A DNA stretch of 59,796 nt, counting the filler, from Sphacelaria rigidula (Eukaryota): NCBI GenBank assembly GCA_964200075.2. It is 4 parts of 4 records of this genome, joined end to end, with 100 filler letters (N's around TTAATTAATTAA, not from the genome) between each part and the next. Parts side by side here need not be neighbours in the genome. Positions count along the whole stretch, not along the records: positions 1 to 14,878 come from CAXNAA020002008.1; 3 more parts are not named here. One strand, 5' to 3'. The notes beneath the pieces were generated by a model. The model ran no database searches and was not told where the DNA came from. It saw only the letters and a program-made list of their open reading frames with translations. Position 1 is the first letter of the stretch, and every line of letters begins with the position of its first letter. Of the stretch, positions 4,045-10,544 are shown one piece after another. The position numbers and the translations under genes are program-made.

Positions 4045-4105
<61 letters not shown>

Positions 4106-4120
4106 CACGCACGCACACAC
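4045..4120. repeat. (CA)n microsatellite, probably intronic
   Basis: A directly visible CA tract with minor interruptions. Confidence 0.95.
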
Positions 4121-4312
4121 AAGTGCCACCCAAGCAATGTACTGTACACGGAAGCTGAGACCTGACTTGTCCACGTCAACACTACGACTTTGTCAATACA
4201 GAGGAACGGCACCACAAACCTCACATGAGAGAGGGGACCGTCCACGCGAGCGAAACTGACACCATACATGATGAAGCAATTGTTGCAGGCTTCACGATAA
4301 ATTCAGGGATAC

Positions 4313-4782
4313 CTGTTGAAGACATGGCGAGTGTGGAGCACGTCCTTAACCGAAGCGGCGTGGTGGGAGCAACAGCAATAATTGAAGCCCCGTCTCCGCT
4401 CCGCGCTTCCTTGGCCAGAGAGGTGGAGACTCCTTCGACAACATGTCAGGAGAATGAGTTGAGAACGAGTACAACGTTACGCTACTGTACTATACTGTGG
4501 ATCCATCACAAGAGTGCAGCCGAGAACAAGAAAAATAACATGAAAATATACCGTATGAGGCTATGACCCACGTTTCTTACAAAACTTGGAGGGGTAGAGA
4601 GGGAAAAGGGGGGAGGAAGCTAGGGGGGGAAGCGCAGGTGCCATCGCATGTGGCGAAGTAACCTCGACCTTCTCACCTCTGGACGTTGCAGCTGCAGGCG
4701 ACGTAACGACGAAAGCATTTGTTGCTCCAACTGACCACGCCATCACGGCACTCCATCCAAAGAGTACCGTCCTTCTCGTCAT
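4313..4782 (-). CDS. 5' exons (4782-4677, 4432-4313) of a nucleus-encoded, probably plastid-targeted protein; downstream exons not resolved
   Basis: MTRRTVLFGWSAVMAWSVGATNA|FVVTSPAAATSR is a signal peptide with a heterokont ASAFAP-type AF cleavage motif. The donor is AG|GTGAGA (phase 1) and the acceptor is ...gtcgaag. Exon 2 reads GVSTSLAKEARSGDGASIIAVAPTTPLRLRTCSTLAMSST, a transit-peptide-like stretch ending in AM-SS, followed by donor G|GTATCC. Further exons are possible near 3710 and 1815 but are not secure. Confidence 0.65.
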
Positions 4783-5066
4783 GCCTCTACGGCGCTAATC
4801 TAGTCTCTAGAGTCTCTGAGGCACCGTGGACGTTCGCACTCTCGGACAACACGACGCTTGTCCTAACTCTTATCACGGCGCGTGCGCTGGTATGTGCCTT
4901 GGAATGCGGGGAAAATTCTAGATCCATGGGTAGGGTAATTTTGCCCCTTAGCAAAACTTTCAGACGTGTACAAGTTATCTCTCAAAATTCAAATTTTGAG
5001 CTTCGCTCTCAGCTCCAACAGCCCCTCCTCCGACAGTATTACAATTTGCAGCTATCTTCAGCTGAC
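4783..5066. promoter_or_regulatory. Short divergent (bidirectional) promoter region between the plastid-targeted gene and CDC6
   Basis: Only 284 bp separate two oppositely oriented predicted ATGs. No specific element was identified. Confidence 0.5.
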
Positions 5067-8000
5067 ATGAGCATTGAGATGCAAAAGCACCAGGAGGTCA
5101 CTGCATCATTCGAGGAGGTGATGTGGGTGCGTCATGATAATGATCAGGGCATGTGGTGGCCAGCGCTGTTCGTGGCAAATGTGGAAAGCAGGAGCTTGCT
5201 CGTGACGGTGAGTGTTCGGCTACATAATACTGTCAGGATGAAATTCAAATAATGGAGGCTGCAGTCCCAAGCACAATCCTGCACAACAACAGCAGCAGCA
5301 GCAGCAGCAGGTTTGCTTGAGATTTCATGCTAGGCCCAATGCGAACAGCTGAACAGCTACGTAATCTGCGCTACGCCTGTATAATCCAGGGCATTTGCTG
5401 ACATATGCTCGTCCCTGACCTTGCACTGCCCCAAACAGGCCGTCCGTCATCATGACACGGAGTCGCAACAGAGGGCAACGGGTGCGTCAAGGGCTGCTGT
5501 ATTACACGTGACTTCGGCCTCGCCAACCGTGCCGCTGTTTTGGCGACCTTACGGTGGCAAGCCAGTGGTGGCTACTGAATGGTGCGCCTACGACGAGAGT
5601 TCACAACGGGCTGGTGAGTGCGCTTCGGGAAAGTCCAGCGTGGCTTTACGTTCGTATATAGACGACAAATACTCCATTCAAAAAGACAGGCTGTAGATAC
5701 TCATCGTGGTGTGGACCCCGCCTCGTCGTTTCCGTTTTGAATTTGATCGATTTTTGAATCTGATTCGCAGGGATGGCGCCGCCAAATGCCAGGACGGTGG
5801 AGAGATTCGAAGAAAAGGCTGTGCATCAGATGAACAGCATCAGGTCAGTGTTGTTATGGCAGCTGCTGATGATGAGTCTTGGCCGACATATAGAGTTGTC
5901 CTTGCTGTTTGAATGAACGCACACCTGCCCTGTTGTACTACTGTACGTCTTCAGTATAGTAACGAAACGGTCTTGACGGTTGGGATTTGAAATTTGAAAT
6001 ATGTAACGTACAGACAGTATACAACACATCACGTGGAGCACGGTTCCCAGTTGCCCTTCGAGAATCAGTTGCCAGGTCGTGATCGAGAGAGATGGGTTGT
6101 CAGGCACGGGAGCTGTTGTCTTTTGTCCATATGTACCGTGTTTCGACCCATGTGAGTAACATTTGTGGGGTTGTCTCTGCATCTCTTCCTTGCAGGTCGG
6201 GTCACGGTGCAGCTGACTCGTCTCATGGTGCAGCGCCGGTTACTCCATCTCCGATGACGCTGTGCGGCAATGTCTGTCCCACCATAACCCCAGCCTCTTC
6301 TTCGAGCGATGCTGCTTCGCCTGGGGACACGTCGCAATCCAGCCGTGCGTCCTCGCCTGCGTCATCCACCTGTGGTACAGAGCTCGATTTAACACCCACT
6401 CAGCTCTCTCCTGGCACAGATGAGCGTCCAGCCCTTTCCCCTCTGGCGAACTCTAACGCGGCTCATTCGGATACTCCGACAGCGCGGACTCTGGAAAGTA
6501 CACCTGCTACCCAAGTGATGGGATGGCATAAGCTAGCCCGGCAGAGAAATGCCGGAGAGGGGGGGAGGCAATCCATATCAACCGCGGGAGGCACCCCACC
6601 TCGTACCCGCGGGGCAAAGCGTGCGCGGGCAGTGAATGAGGTTAGATTCCTTGGTGAAAACAGGAAGCGAATCATAGGCGAGGTGTCTCCAGCGGCCAGT
6701 CGTCCTAGCCGCAACACGCGTAGCAGAAAGGAATGCGTGGATAACAACCAGTATCCTCGGCTCGGGAGCCCTCCCGCCAGTGCTGCCGGACATGTACTCT
6801 ACCGTAGCCAGTGCGCTAGCAACAACAGCCCGGATGTGAAGCTACGGCCAGTTGAGGATGGGGGTGACTTCAGTGCCGCGGTGGAGAGGGAGGGAGGTCG
6901 TGTGGATTCACCTTGCGCAATGCAGATCGAGGAGCAACATTCACGTTATTGCCAACAAAGGCAGGCATTGAGCGAAACGGAGAGCGAACTGTCCGGTGAC
7001 GAAGAACCGATTCTCTGCGACAAGCGCATGACTAGACAGCAGCATCGCACGGAACACAACACCATCCCGGTCACGGGATTGTTGTCTTTAACCCAACAAG
7101 AGACGCCGAGAGAGACTGTGCCGGTCCCATCCCGTGGCGGCCACGAGAAAAGTCAAGTTGGCGGAGCAGATATTTGCGGGGCGTCAAGTGTCGACGCCGT
7201 GGCTCAAGAAGCGGCGGCTTTCCGCGACGTAGGAATCACCGGGCGGGAACAGGAATTCAAGGACATTCGCCCCAAACTCATGAAACTGAAGTGGAGATGG
7301 GGACCGGCAATCGACAAATCGGCGACCACTTCCGAGCTCTGGTTCATGAAGCCGAAGACGAACATCAAGACGGCAACGCATGGGGTTGATAAGTTCGAGC
7401 CAAACGAGCATGTAGTGGAGTATGTCCGAAGCGTGTTGGCGCGAAGCGAGGAGGTCAATTCCGACGGGGAAGATGAAGGCACCGAAAAAGAAGACGAGGG
7501 GAATGGGTACGGCGAAGGAGAGGCGGAGACGGGTGAAGATTGTGAGCACGAACACGTTGATAGTGGAAGCGTGGACGTGGACGAGAGGTTGACAGGGGTG
7601 GGTGCGCAGCCTGAGTCGCAAGAGATCCGGGAACTAGAGGATGCGTTGGAAGCACTGTCTCCTGCCAACGCGCCCGCGGCCCCGAATCAACGCGAGGGGG
7701 AATTCAACGAAGTTTTACAGTTTTTGACAGACGGGATAAAAAAATCGGCTGGAGGAAGCATGTACCTCTGCGGGTGTCCTGGAACGGGGAAAACCATGAC
7801 CATGTCTCTCGTGCAACAGGAGTTGCAGAATGGGCGGAAGGTGAGGGGTGAACACGCACAGAGGGTTGCTTTCATCGAAGCTGAATACATCGGGTACAGG
7901 GCCGAGTGTTTTTTTGTCGTAACTTTTTTGTAAATCGAGGCATTTTTCATGAGTGCTGACTCCACGTGATGACTGATCCCTGATGGACCGAAGAGGCTCT

Positions 8001-9767
8001 GCCTGATGCACTCACCGACTCATCTTGCCACCCTTTCCTCCCCCCATCCCTCGCGTTTATTCGTGGTCATTCCTCCACAGACTGGCCTGCCGGTTCCAGA
8101 GTTTCACACCTTCACTGGAACCGCGTTCACAAACCCGAGCACGATGCATGGTGATCTCTGGCGGGCGATTTCAGGCCAAACCGACAGGCCGGTGGACGTA
8201 GAAAAGGCTATAAGCATGAAACTTCAACGCAAGGGGGCGGCGTGTACGGCGCGCTCGCCAATGATCGTGGTGGTGGTGGACGAGATCGATCAGCTCCACT
8301 CGCACAACCGGCAAGTGCTACGGAAGCTGTTCGAGTGGGCTGCTGCACCCAAGTCCCGCTTGGTAAGTTTCCCGTCTTTCTACGATGTTACCAAAAACCG
8401 CCCGCTCTCGTAAGGTCGGTGTAGGCCGCGTGAACCGCTCATGGGTGTATCTGCTCGATTGTCGCTCGACTACATTATACGCGAAGGAATCGTCGTAGAC
8501 TACTGTAGACTATACAGTATATGCGCACATTTGTTGTGTTCGTGCCGAGTGAAATGGTTTTGGCTGCGGTGGATTTTGGAACGGTTTCTCATCCAGTTAT
8601 TTGAAGGCACATGGGACTTCGCACACTCCAAAACTATCCATGAGGCCTGAAAACGCCGAAATCAACATTTTTCCGGCATCCTTGCGCCAAAAAACAGAAA
8701 ATTAAAGTCTTGTTTGGGATATCGCTTGCCCTACTCCGCGTAACAGCAGGGGCCGAAGCGGCGTAAGCATCGTTTAGTCTTTTGGAGAGTAGACTGGTAC
8801 AATGATGGCAAGCAAAGCAGTAAAGCAACTTAATGGTTGCCCACGCAGCGCTCAACTCTGAGCGCGTGCCATGTGTACAAGAGGCATCCTTGTAATTGAA
8901 TTATCATGATCTCCTTTGGGGGTGACTCAAGAGTGGAACCTGACGAATCAGTTTTTTCTCTCGCCCGTTTGCTTTATTTTTTCCTTCAAACAGCTCTTGG
9001 TCGGCATCGCCAACTCTATCGAGTTTGATGTGGCGTTCGACCTGAGAAAGCCTCCTACCAAGATTTGCTTCAGAGCGTACTCACCATCAGACCTTGCGGG
9101 AATCCTCGAGCAAAGAGTGGGCTCGGTCATGGACAAGGGGGCACTGACCTTGTGCTCGAAGAAAGTTGCTGCCACACACGGGGACGCCAGAAGAGCGATC
9201 ACTATATGCCGGGAAGCAGTCAGCATCGCCAAGCGAGCAGTTCAAGCCAAGATAGATCAAGCCGCTGCCGAGGCAGAGCAATCTGCAGAGGACACGCAAA
9301 GCACCGAGACGGCGCAGGCGGACGCGACTCGAGAGAAGGAAAAGGCCCCGGTCACAATTGTGCACATGCAGCAGGCCCTGAAGGGTGCGCGCGCTTGTAG
9401 GCACGGAGACGCCATGGTGGCGCTATCTACCCAGGCGCAGATTGTCCTTTGCGTGGCAGCAGCATCTGCTCGTGAGTCTGAAGGAAGGCGAGACCGCCCT
9501 GATGGCGCCAAGATGAAACGAAGCAAACTTACCCAGGGAACCTTGCATGAAAAGTGTATGCATAGGTGCGCGAAAGCAAACATAAATGGATGGCTCAGCC
9601 AAATCGAGTTTTCCGGCACGATAGACATGCTCGCGGCGCAGGGTCTCGTGGATGTGCGAGGGAAGCAAAGCACCGGTCGCGCGCGCGAGCTGGCTCTGCA
9701 CGTTGAATGGTCAGACGTTGAAATAGCGCTGGGAAATTTGCCGTTTTTCAAGGACGTCACAGCCTAA
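5067..9767 (+). CDS. CDC6: Cell division control protein 6 (CDC6/ORC1-family AAA+ ATPase), ~1029 aa; exons 5067-5207, 5439-5613, 5771-5843, 6196-7840, 8081-8362, 8994-9767
   Basis: All five introns are GT-AG, and phases (0,1,2,0,0) give one continuous frame. Motifs: Walker A SMYLCGCPGTGKT, Walker B IVVVVDEIDQL, LRKLFEWAAAPKSRLLLVGIANS (sensor 1), ALTLCSKKVAATHGDARRAITICREAV (sensor 2) and a C-terminal winged helix (LSQIEFSGTIDMLAAQGLV). DEIDQL and LFEW fit CDC6 better than ORC1. Confidence 0.88.
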
Positions 9768-10544
9768 AATATGATTGTTTTTTTAGTTGACGGTCGACCA
9801 TCTGTTGACGAGACTCTCCTTGCCTGTCTTGCTGATTATCGGGGAGGCTATGTAGATGAACATATCTCATGTCTGTGGTTCACGGTGGAGTAGTTCCCCT
9901 TGTCGGATGTATCTTGAATGGGTGAGTAGATACGATTTCTCATGTTGCACATAGTCAATTTACTTGGTAAGAGACATCAATATATTGTAGAACTGTTCAT
10001 GCGATGAGAGTGCATGCCGCAGGATGGTAAACATGGTATGTTGGCACACAGCTGCACGTTCTGTCGAGGTTATGCAGCCAGTATTAGGGTACCAACCCCT
10101 TGTTGAAAGTTTCACATTTTGAGGTATTATAGCTGCGCAAGTAGAGTACTTTCGGCCATTGAAGCACAAACGCCCACGGTCTTGCATGGGACAGGTACTT
10201 TTAGTGCGCGCTAGCGCTCCTCTTAGTCAGCCCATGGTTGTTTCGACGAAACGTTACCCGAGGGAGTCGTGTCTCGGGCAGTGTAGCAACAGATCGTCGG
10301 TAGCCTGGTGAGCTTTACCCCGCGGAAATAGCCGTAAGGGTGTATATCGTTGTACAGATCGCACCGGTAGTCAAATAGCCAAGAGTGCATTTTGGGCTCG
10401 TTCGAAACGATGAAAAATGAGACGAGAAAGAGACATCGTTGTTTTTTGCATTTAACACTGGAACATATGGCGAGATGTTGAAGGCGAGGTGAAGCCGTTC
10501 CTCTCAACCTCTCTCCTCCTAATCCTCGGGACGAGATAATCTTG

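What the first reader, a model, noticed from the sequence alone, without database searches (positions are those of the whole stretch)
5067..5843. CDC6 carries an N-terminal PWWP-like chromatin-reader module
Seen: three small phase-compatible exons upstream of the large CDC6 exon encode EEVMWVRHDNDQGMWWPALFV...TVPLFWRPYGGKPVVATEWCAYDES...ARTVERFEEKAVHQM. Known: VW-x(n)-WWPA followed by a beta-barrel and a C-terminal helix is the PWWP signature, usually an H3K36me2/3 and DNA reader. Yeast, plant and animal Cdc6 have no reader domain, whereas the paralogue Orc1 uses BAH (plus PHD in plants). Inference: this lineage may direct origin licensing through a PWWP domain on the Cdc6 side, a different link between chromatin and origins. 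The ORF track does not show this because the module is split over three exons.
Basis: partly seen in the sequence, partly recalled or inferred. Interest (0 to 1): 0.75.

Follow-up and report, generated by a model that had tools for sequence, protein, structure and literature searches.

The report
Algal CDC6 with PWWP-like front module
The replication-licensing gene CDC6 of this brown-alga-related organism really is spliced to three small upstream exons that add a conserved front module, which looks like a PWWP-type chromatin-binding domain, although that fold is not yet proven.

Summary
Spliced contigs from public runs join 5207/5439, 5613/5771 and 5843/6196, all GT..AG, and one contig runs from exon 1 through the AAA+ exons. 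The six-exon CDS is 3090 nt, or 1029 aa, with no internal stop.

The gene is best read as CDC6:
- It lies outside a well-supported ORC1 clade.
- Its Ectocarpus orthologue CBJ29103 is the non-ORC1 member of that genome's CDC6/ORC1 pair in a published survey.

The AAA+ tree alone cannot exclude a sister position to ORC1.

The front module is real and conserved. Two early-branching brown algae start with it, and four diatom CDC6s carry a similar WP/WWP motif.

PWWP identity is only partly supported:
- Protein-language-model neighbours are PWWP clusters, at 0.86-0.89.
- One low-confidence AlphaFold model draws mostly PWWP and Tudor hits.
- Pfam and PDB profiles give nothing, and the second model is ambiguous.

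The claim that Cdc6 elsewhere lacks reader domains is wrong. Marchantia, Chara and prasinophyte-type CDC6 carry MBD, a haptophyte PHD and a pelagophyte Agenet.

The parts
5067..5207 (+). Exon 1 (47 codons): start codon, strand 1 (VMWVR) and the MWWPA motif
   Evidence: Sequence. Joint 5207/5439 in spliced contigs. Sole significant hit of the orthologue N-terminus profile in the window, E 1.8e-6.
5208..5438 (+). Intron 1 (231 nt, GT..AG), holding a CAG repeat
   Evidence: Skipped in contigs of X1, X2 and X8 and kept in DNA run X5.
5439..5613 (+). Exon 2 (175 nt): variable insert, then the LFWRP and ATEW..YD strands
   Evidence: Joints. Aligns with IFWLP and SEW..FD of P0003.
5771..5843 (+). Exon 3 (73 nt): predicted C-terminal helix of the module
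   Evidence: Joints 5613/5771 and 5843/6196. Both orthologue models place a long helix at the matching position.
6196..7204 (+). First part of exon 4: long Ser/Thr/Pro-rich linker, likely disordered, holding the in-frame ATG at 6254
   Evidence: Translation. 20 [ST]P sites in the whole protein, one full [ST]Px[KR] at residue 263. No Pfam hit.
7205..7459 (+). Central 'GW' module (residues 467-551), conserved in ochrophyte CDC6 and repeated in diatoms
   Evidence: Profile hits at 1e-38 to 1e-41 in P0002, P0003 and P0154. hhalign against diatom and Chrysoparadoxa copies gives probability 94.5%, E 7.8e-8. No Pfam hit.
7616..7840 (+). Start of the AAA+ core, with Walker A (GCPGTGKT) at 7772-7795
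8081..8362 (+). Exon 5: rest of the AAA+ core, with Walker B (VVVDEID)
   Evidence: Joints 7840/8081 and 8362/8994. AAA hits. Alignment with orthologues.
8994..9767 (+). Exon 6: sensor region (GIANS), lid (GDARRA), winged helix and stop codon
   Evidence: Pfam Cdc6_C at 27.1 bits (cut-off 25.1), AAA_lid_10 and Cdc6_lid. Best PDB match is Drosophila Cdc6 7jgr_G, E 2.5e-11, over residues 1-246.
9768..10426 (+). 3' untranslated region, at least this long
   Evidence: Spliced contigs run on to 10404-10426.

Best explanation
This is the CDC6 gene (the co-loader of the MCM helicase) of an ochrophyte alga related to brown algae. Its mRNA joins six exons into a 1029-residue protein.

The canonical ATPase and winged-helix body makes up the last ~430 residues. 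In front of it lies a ~600-residue extension with four parts:
- a 110-130-residue N-terminal module encoded by exons 1-3;
- a long Ser/Thr/Pro-rich linker, likely disordered;
- a conserved ~80-residue 'GW' module;
- an acidic stretch.

The N-terminal module is most likely a divergent Royal-family barrel of the PWWP type: strands 1-2 joined at an MWWP motif, an inserted helix, further strands and a closing helix.

Shown: the splicing, the open frame, conservation of the module in orthologues, and placement outside the ORC1 clade.

Inferred: the fold (about 0.6), and the idea that it tethers CDC6 to chromatin (DNA and/or a methylated histone tail) so that helicase loading is biased to certain chromatin (about 0.35-0.4). 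That would parallel the role of BAH on ORC1 and of MBD, PHD and Agenet on CDC6 of other algae and early land plants.
For: Splicing and one continuous transcript. Open 1029-codon frame.

Orthologues:
- P0002 (Discosporangium) and P0003 (Choristocarpus) match exon 6 at 1e-50 and begin with the same module.
- Their N-terminus profile finds exon 1 alone among 1660 ORF pieces, at E 1.8e-6.
- A WP or WWP motif in the same N-terminal place occurs in 4 of 4 full-length diatom relatives examined: P0181/P0183 Ditylum, P0129 Thalassiosira exigua, P0205 Skeletonema potamos and P0037.

Fold:
- ESM Atlas nearest clusters are PWWP (PF00855 in 97-99% of members). P0002 1-113 scores 0.89/174, 0.87/172 and 0.87/165. 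P0003 1-110 scores 0.86/165 and 0.86/148.
- AlphaFold models of both orthologues give the same element order.
- In the Foldseek list for model 1, ranks 1-10 are all PWWP-domain entries, best E 0.13.
- The VIA wide list for model 1 is dominated by Tudor, PWWP, Agenet and SAWADEE. PWWP rows align 73-86 residues, including the last helix.

CDC6:
- Careful tree of 83 rows: window plus brown algae at 100/99. These join the diatom clade and P0029/P0038 at 93/84 and then the pelagophytes at 94/53, 17 ochrophyte rows in all.
- The ORC1 clade of 9 rows stands apart at 100/96.
- In the 42-row tree the 12 ochrophyte rows get 99/98. Forcing the four brown-lineage rows into ORC1 costs 22.5 lnL, p-AU 0.034.
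- Ocana-Pallares et al. 2020 (PMC7058166, Suppl. Table 1 and supplementary figure text, passages read) list Ectocarpus with cdc6=1, orc1=1 and uncertain=0. CBJ26626 is among the ORC1 architectures, which leaves CBJ29103 (= P0154, the orthologue) as CDC6.
- No BAH or ORC1_wHTH hit at E<=10.
Against: Fold:
- No Pfam PWWP hit at E<=10 for the three exon pieces, for full-length P0002 and P0003, for their N-termini alone, or for P0037 and P0183.
- The profile of the module against PDB sequences finds only chance antibody and L17 rows at E>1.
- Both models are of low confidence (pLDDT 55.3 and 51.4, pTM 0.47 and 0.29), and strand 5 is not predicted.
- Language-model scores are under 0.9, which the tool calls a lead only.

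Conservation:
- The module is poorly conserved: 21/108, 29/102 and 32/106 identities.
- Homology to the diatom N-termini is not significant (hhalign probability 0.4% and 14.5%).
- The Ectocarpus model P0154 and Chrysoparadoxa P0038 lack the motif.

CDC6:
- The AAA+ tree does not reject the whole ochrophyte clade as sister to ORC1 (delta lnL 1.3, p-AU 0.45).
- The first AAA+ piece scores slightly better against ORC1 chains than against Cdc6 chains (2e-7 against 2.7e-5).
- Cdc6_C does not discriminate: 4 of 9 ORC1-clade rows carry it too.
- No genome is held, so I could not check that this organism has a separate ORC1.
Confidence: 0.5

Rival explanations
1. The N-terminal module is a folded small barrel, but not a histone or DNA reader. 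It would serve instead as a docking or regulatory domain, for example for a partner protein, for self-inhibition of the ATPase, or for cell-cycle-controlled turnover. The N-terminal regions of yeast and animal Cdc6 act in this way.
For: - SH3/Tudor-like barrels with non-histone roles (CarD, UvrD Tudor, Cren7) are among the matches for model 2.
- The module is poorly conserved (19-30% identity) and is missing from the Ectocarpus and Chrysoparadoxa models.
- Recalled, not from a call: the position four residues before the Pro of the motif is aromatic in the PWWP readers I remember. Here it is Gly in the window, P0002 and P0003 (sequences).
Against: - Language-model neighbours are specifically PWWP, with 10 of the 10 best family-bearing hits in one family or clan.
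- Several aromatic positions are conserved across the three brown-lineage sequences.
- CDC6 of other lineages carries bona fide chromatin-binding domains at the same end.
Confidence: 0.22
2. Exons 1-3 encode no Royal-family domain at all. The region would be a lineage-specific segment, of a new fold or largely disordered, held together by a short conserved WWP-containing motif, and the PWWP resemblance would be motif-level coincidence.
For: - All sequence-profile tests against known families are blank.
- Both models are of low confidence, and 35 of 113 and 42 of 112 residues have pLDDT under 50.
- Statistical homology among orthologues rests mainly on about 28 residues of exon 1.
Against: - Both models independently predict the same strand-strand-helix-strand-strand-helix order.
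- Model 1's hit lists are enriched for one superfamily rather than scattered.
- The later FW.P and EW..[FY]D positions are also shared between the window and P0003.
Confidence: 0.18
3. The gene is not CDC6. It would be a divergent ORC1-type or undivided CDC6/ORC1-type initiator of ochrophytes, and the front module would take the place of BAH.
For: - The long N-terminal extension is ORC1-like in length.
- The first AAA+ piece scores best against ORC1 chains.
- A sister position of the ochrophyte clade to ORC1 is not rejected (p-AU 0.45).
- The survey paper notes uncertain CDC6/ORC1 sequences and taxa with a single copy.
Against: - The ORC1 clade excludes it at 100/96.
- Joining the brown-lineage rows to ORC1 is rejected at p 0.034.
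- Ectocarpus has a separate ORC1, CBJ26626, and its orthologue of this gene is counted as cdc6.
- The lid and winged helix align end to end with Drosophila Cdc6 but only over the lid with ORC1 chains.
- Sources name clade members cell division control protein 6.
Confidence: 0.12

Closest known systems
CDC6 of brown algae (Ectocarpus siliculosus CBJ29103 / D7FJK0; unnamed products of Discosporangium mesarthrocarpum and Choristocarpus tenellus)
   Same: Orthologues: 44-51% identity over the ATPase and winged-helix body, the same long linker and the same central GW module. The two Discosporangiales proteins also have the same N-terminal module.
   Different: The databases label them 'conserved unknown' or 'unnamed', with no domain noted in front. 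The Ectocarpus model keeps only a strand-1-like piece and has no WWP motif, through loss or a faulty gene model.
ORC1 with BAH (animals, fungi) or PHD-BAH (green plants)
   Same: A paralogous initiator ATPase that carries a chromatin reader at its N-terminus, followed by a long linker. The logic of coupling licensing to chromatin marks is the same (established knowledge; PMC7058166 passages).
   Different: It is a different paralogue, and the window protein lies outside the ORC1 clade.
CDC6 with an N-terminal methyl-CpG-binding domain (Marchantia polymorpha/paleacea, Chara braunii, prasinophyte-type 2055-residue proteins)
   Same: The same paralogue carries a chromatin or DNA-mark binding domain in front of a long linker (Pfam MBD at 1e-11 to 1e-13; names).
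   Different: The domain family differs. The window's modules show no similarity to MBD (hhalign probability 5%).
PWWP domains of chromatin readers (Pfam PF00855; PDB 2daq, 1khc, 2l89, 1h3z, 3zeh)
   Same: A WWP motif at the start of strand 2, a predicted barrel plus C-terminal helix, nearest language-model clusters, and the top of model 1's fold lists.
   Different: No profile-level match. The loop between strand 1 and the motif is longer. There is a 45-residue insert in the window, whereas the two brown-algal orthologues have an insert about 11 residues shorter. The methyl-lysine cage cannot be assigned.
Pelagophyte CDC6-like protein with tandem Agenet (Pelagophyceae sp. CCMP2097 KAJ1446185.1)
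   Same: A member of the same ochrophyte clade, carrying a Royal-family reader at the N-terminus (Agenet E 6e-16, two stretches; tree).
   Different: No detectable sequence relation to the window's module (hhalign probability 0.05%). The protein is much shorter and has no GW module.

Membership tests
PWWP domain (Pfam PF00855, Royal superfamily) | Significant match to the family's sequence profile | tested here: not met
   No PF00855 row at E<=10 for the exon pieces, for full-length P0002 and P0003, for their N-termini alone, or for P0037 and P0183. HMMER's filters may drop matches above about 0.1.
PWWP domain (Pfam PF00855, Royal superfamily) | [P/S]-x-W-P type motif at the start of strand 2, after a hydrophobic strand 1 (motif recalled) | tested here: met
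   The window has VMWVR followed by MWWPA. P0002 has LWWPG and P0003 LQWPG. Diatom relatives have IWWPA, LWPA and KWPA.
PWWP domain (Pfam PF00855, Royal superfamily) | Five-strand barrel followed by a helical segment | tested here: inconclusive
   Both orthologue models give four strands, an inserted helix and a long last helix. Their pLDDT is 55.3 and 51.4, and the strand-5 region is under 50. The window's own spliced module could not be handed to the folding tool.
PWWP domain (Pfam PF00855, Royal superfamily) | Structural similarity to solved PWWP domains | tested here: inconclusive
PWWP domain (Pfam PF00855, Royal superfamily) | Aromatic cage, and binding of a methylated lysine and/or DNA | not testable with these tools
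   Several aromatic positions are conserved, but without a reliable model they cannot be assigned to a cage.
CDC6 (eukaryotic helicase co-loader) | Initiator-clade AAA+ with Walker A and B, sensor and lid, followed by a winged helix | tested here: met
   GCPGTGKT, VVVDEID, GIANS and GDARRA in the sequence. Pfam AAA_22, AAA_16, AAA_lid_10, Cdc6_lid, and Cdc6_C at 27.1 bits against a cut-off of 25.1. PDB 7jgr_G at E 2.5e-11. Cdc6_C alone does not separate CDC6 from ORC1.
CDC6 (eukaryotic helicase co-loader) | Groups with CDC6 and not with ORC1 in a family tree | tested here: inconclusive
   It lies outside the ORC1 clade (100/96). Union of the brown-lineage rows with ORC1 is rejected at p-AU 0.034. 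The backbone is weak, and the whole ochrophyte clade as sister to ORC1 is not rejected at p-AU 0.45.
CDC6 (eukaryotic helicase co-loader) | A separate ORC1 exists in the same genome | not testable with these tools
   No genome is held for this window. In Ectocarpus the survey lists cdc6=1 and orc1=1, with CBJ26626 as ORC1 and CBJ29103 as the orthologue of this gene.
ORC1 | BAH domain and/or an ORC1-type C-terminal winged helix (PF21312) | tested here: not met
   Neither family appears at E<=10 for any exon piece or for P0002 and P0003. Both are found in ORC1-clade rows P0106 and P0123.

The most novel reading that the evidence does not exclude
CDC6, and not only ORC1, may be a recurrent carrier of chromatin-mark readers across photosynthetic eukaryotes. 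Lineages appear to have added different modules independently:
- MBD in streptophytes and prasinophyte-type algae;
- PHD in haptophytes;
- tandem Agenet in pelagophytes;
- a PWWP-like module plus one to several 'GW' modules in diatoms and the brown-algal lineage.

In these organisms the choice of where MCM is loaded would then be set partly on the CDC6 side. The ochrophyte front module would be an ancient, fast-evolving PWWP that predates the split of diatoms and brown algae.
Probability: 0.3. Interest if true: 0.75.

Novelty: new variant of a known kind. Interest (0 to 1): 0.55.

Why it matters
Textbook models place chromatin reading in origin licensing on ORC (ORC1 BAH, plant PHD-BAH, ORCA/LRWD1). 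They treat CDC6 as a short-lived ATPase whose N-terminus holds only regulatory motifs.

Here a transcribed CDC6 carries a conserved, probably Royal-type front module and a second conserved module of unknown fold. CDC6 of liverworts, charophytes, haptophytes and pelagophytes carries recognised reader domains.

If these modules bind chromatin, they offer a directly testable second route from chromatin state to helicase loading, in lineages where origins are essentially unmapped.

Four full-text searches found no paper describing a reader domain on CDC6 in these groups: PWWP with CDC6, PWWP with ORC1 and stramenopiles, PWWP with CDC6 and diatoms or brown algae, and CDC6 with MBD. The library lacks most subscription journals.

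Tried and rejected
- Whole-genome search of the window's assembly: none is held.
- No RNA holder is on record. The runs are labelled 'RNA? (a guess)', and their RNA nature is inferred from the intron-less contigs.
- The first homologue search, with the 616-residue ORF, found only the organism's own unspliced ORF.
- The profile search with the N-terminal alignment found only P0002 and P0003 again.
- The metagenome scan with the exon-6 alignment matched 182 pattern stretches, none confirmed.
- hhalign of the module against the diatom N-termini gave probability 0.4%. Redone in a script with the spliced window peptide and Ditylum, it gave probability 14.5%, P 0.0019, over 16 columns at the motif only.
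- hhalign of the module against the pelagophyte Agenet gave nothing.
- The GW module against MBD gave probability 5%, so the MBD idea was dropped.
- The AU test on the 83-row tree did not finish in two calls. I replaced it with a 42-row subset that I chose by hand (41 rows dropped: redundant members of each clade, the long branches P0126, P0032, P0103, P0071, P0069, P0134, and fragments).
- From the 111 rows that passed 80% profile coverage, 28 cluster duplicates were dropped before the 83-row tree.
- Earlier-notes look-ups by place and by sequence were empty.
All fold tests were therefore run on orthologues.
Full report
**The observation**

The sequence at 5067-5843 holds an ATG at 5067 and three short open segments: 5067-5207, 5439-5613 and 5771-5843. 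They are bounded by GT..AG, and their phases (0, 1, 2) carry the frame into the long ORF from 6196.

Public runs that hold this locus were found and laid.
- Contigs of X1, X2 and X8 lack exactly 5208-5438, 5614-5770, 5844-6195, 7841-8080 and 8363-8993. All five gaps are GT..AG.
- The DNA run X5 covers the stretch with one unspliced contig.
- X2 record 5 is a single 3674-nt spliced contig from 5120 to 10404, so the small exons and the ATPase exons lie on one molecule.
- X1 record 2 begins at 5051, before the ATG, with no loose end.
- X8 mirrors X1 in contig sizes and depths and may be the same data. The runs are only guessed to be RNA, and the intron-less form is the evidence.

Joined by coordinates in a script, the six exons give 3090 nt, or 1029 residues, with no internal stop. 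By my own arithmetic, 130 random codons would stay open about 2 times in 1000.

**Which gene it is**

- Exon 6 matches Pfam Cdc6_C (27.1 bits, cut-off 25.1), AAA_lid_10 and Cdc6_lid. Exons 4-5 match AAA families. No BAH or ORC1_wHTH appears at E<=10.
- Against PDB sequences, exon 6 aligns end to end with Drosophila Cdc6 (7jgr_G, E 2.5e-11), but only over the lid with ORC1 chains. The first ATPase piece scores a little better on ORC1 than on Cdc6 (2e-7 against 2.7e-5).
- An exhaustive phmmer search with exon 6 gave 354 hits at E<=0.001, but only four at E<=1e-30: P0004, P0002, P0003 and P0005. The next hit is at 1.9e-17.
- P0002 and P0003 are from the brown algae Discosporangium and Choristocarpus. 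P0005's cluster holds Ectocarpus siliculosus CBJ29103 (P0154, 958 residues, 'conserved unknown protein').

Tree results:
- A careful tree of 83 rows by 421 columns puts the window with the brown algae at 100/99. These join a diatom clade plus P0029 and Chrysoparadoxa P0038 at 93/84, and then pelagophytes at 94/53.
- The nine ORC1 rows (three with BAH, plus Chytriomyces ORC1 and Capsaspora) form a separate clade at 100/96.
- In a 42-row subset the 12 ochrophyte rows get 99/98.
- Forcing the four brown-lineage rows into ORC1 is rejected (delta lnL 22.5, p-AU 0.034).
- Placing the whole ochrophyte clade as sister to ORC1 is not rejected (delta lnL 1.3, p-AU 0.45). The tree alone therefore does not settle the paralogue.

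Independent help comes from Ocana-Pallares et al. 2020 (PMC7058166; I read text passages, Suppl. Table 1 rows and supplementary figure text). Ectocarpus has cdc6=1, orc1=1 and uncertain=0. CBJ26626 stands in the list of bona fide ORC1 architectures, which leaves CBJ29103 as the CDC6. I put CDC6 at about 0.8.

**The front module**

P0002 and P0003 both start with the same pattern as the window:
- a hydrophobic strand ending in W-[VF]-R;
- an acidic loop;
- G-[LM]-[WQ]-W-P-[AG];
- a variable insert;
- [IL]-F-[WL]-x-[PL];
- E-W or P-F followed by [FY]-[DN];
- an amphipathic helix.

Identity is low: 21/108, 29/102 and 32/106. The match is nevertheless specific. A profile of the two algal N-termini alone finds the exon-1 ORF piece at E 1.8e-6 among 1660 pieces of the window, and the next piece is at 1.4.

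A comparable N-terminal WP or WWP motif occurs in 4 of 4 full-length diatom relatives examined: Ditylum P0181/P0183, Thalassiosira exigua P0129, Skeletonema potamos P0205 and P0037. After it come an inserted helix, an L-[LI]-x-G strand, an F-[DF] site and a helix. Profile comparison between the two groups is not significant. The motif is absent from the Ectocarpus and Chrysoparadoxa models.

**Is it a PWWP?**

Against:
- No Pfam PF00855 hit at E<=10 in any test.
- No PWWP in a profile search of PDB sequences, nor with Ditylum alone.

For:
- The ESM Atlas places P0002 1-113 nearest to three PWWP clusters (0.89/174, 0.87/172, 0.87/165). It places P0003 1-110 nearest to two (0.86/165, 0.86/148). 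The tool's own calibration calls scores under 0.9 a lead.
- AlphaFold on P0002 1-113 (alignment A4, 5 rows) gave pLDDT 55.3 and pTM 0.47. The elements are strands 11-16 and 22-31, helix 32-46, strands 59-63 and 68-72, and helix 93-111.
- Foldseek found nothing at E<=0.001, but ranks 1-10 are all PWWP-domain entries (2daq E 0.13, 1khc 0.37).

Ambiguous:
- The second model (P0003 1-112, alignment A7, 7 rows) has pLDDT 51.4 and pTM 0.29. It shows the same order of elements.

I read this as a probable (about 0.6) divergent Royal-type barrel of PWWP flavour. It is not a demonstrated PWWP. Whether it has a working methyl-lysine cage cannot be told.

**The premise about other Cdc6 proteins**

Of 81 relatives of 380 residues or more scanned at E<=1e-5, none has PWWP. 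Four Cdc6_C-bearing proteins have an MBD: P0007, P0008, P0056 and P0144. One has a PHD (P0102), one a tandem Agenet (P0130), and three have BAH (the ORC1s). A second PHD-bearing relative, P0215, turned up.

Names from the sources:
- P0056/P0197 are Marchantia paleacea and M. polymorpha, 'cell division control protein 6' and 'MBD domain-containing protein'.
- P0008 is Chara braunii, P0130 is Pelagophyceae sp. CCMP2097 and P0102 is Pavlovales sp..
- P0007's 15 cluster members, of 2047-2057 residues, come from several independent collections, so that fusion is not a single gene-model accident.

A reader-type domain on the CDC6 side is thus not unique to this lineage. What is particular here is the kind of module. 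I did not test it.

**Other anatomy**

- A central ~85-residue module (residues 467-551, nt 7205-7459) is strongly conserved in the brown-lineage proteins (1e-38 to 1e-41).
- It is homologous to modules repeated in the diatom and Chrysoparadoxa proteins (hhalign probability 94.5%, E 7.8e-8).
- It has no Pfam match and no detectable relation to MBD.
- The linker carries many of the protein's 20 [ST]P sites. Inference: it is a substrate for CDK control, as in other Cdc6 proteins.

**Verdict**

It is a new variant of a known kind. I found no description in six full-text searches. Supplements of bioRxiv preprints, and papers outside the library, could not be checked.

Noticed in passing
window 7205-7459 (+), residues 467-551 of the spliced protein: A conserved 'GW' module (W..L...GW.W ... 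PG ... G.D.F ... V..Y) lies in the middle of the protein. It is shared with brown-algal orthologues and is homologous to modules repeated several times in diatom and Chrysoparadoxa CDC6 (hhalign probability 94.5%). It has no Pfam hit, is not detectably an MBD, and its fold is unknown.
   Followed up: partly
related proteins P0056/P0197, P0008, P0007, P0144, P0102, P0215, P0130: CDC6-type proteins of other lineages carry recognised chromatin or DNA-mark domains at the N-terminus. These are MBD in Marchantia, Chara and a 2055-residue prasinophyte-type protein, PHD in a Pavlovales haptophyte clade, and tandem Agenet in a pelagophyte. No paper on this turned up.
   Followed up: partly
window 4313-4878 (-): A divergently transcribed neighbour has a CT..AC (minus-strand GT..AG) intron at 4432-4675. 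Its contig word depth is about 1350-1880, against 8-45 for CDC6. Its 5' end at 4878 leaves at most about 170 nt to the first covered base of the CDC6 transcript (5051), which suggests a shared bidirectional promoter. The first exon encodes a hydrophobic, signal-like N-terminus. I did not identify the gene.
   Followed up: no
window 4045-4122 and 5276-5317: A (CA)n microsatellite of about 78 nt lies upstream of the neighbour gene, and a (CAG)n run lies inside intron 1 of CDC6. Read laying skipped both as repeats.
   Followed up: no
P0154 (Ectocarpus siliculosus CBJ29103), residues 1-70: The Ectocarpus orthologue's model keeps only a strand-1-like 'LYWVK' piece and lacks the WWP motif and the later strands. 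Either exons are missing from the gene model or the module has decayed in Ectocarpales.
   Followed up: partly
window 4926: A further in-frame ATG lies 141 nt upstream of the ATG at 5067, with no stop between them (the ORF piece starts at 4707). No laid contig covers 4879-5050, so a longer N-terminus cannot be excluded.
   Followed up: no
related proteins P0028 and P0122: Two relatives look like chimeric gene models. One has NBR1 UBA and Ig domains in front of a plant-type CDC6. The other has a DHHC palmitoyltransferase in front of an ORC1-clade ATPase.
   Followed up: no
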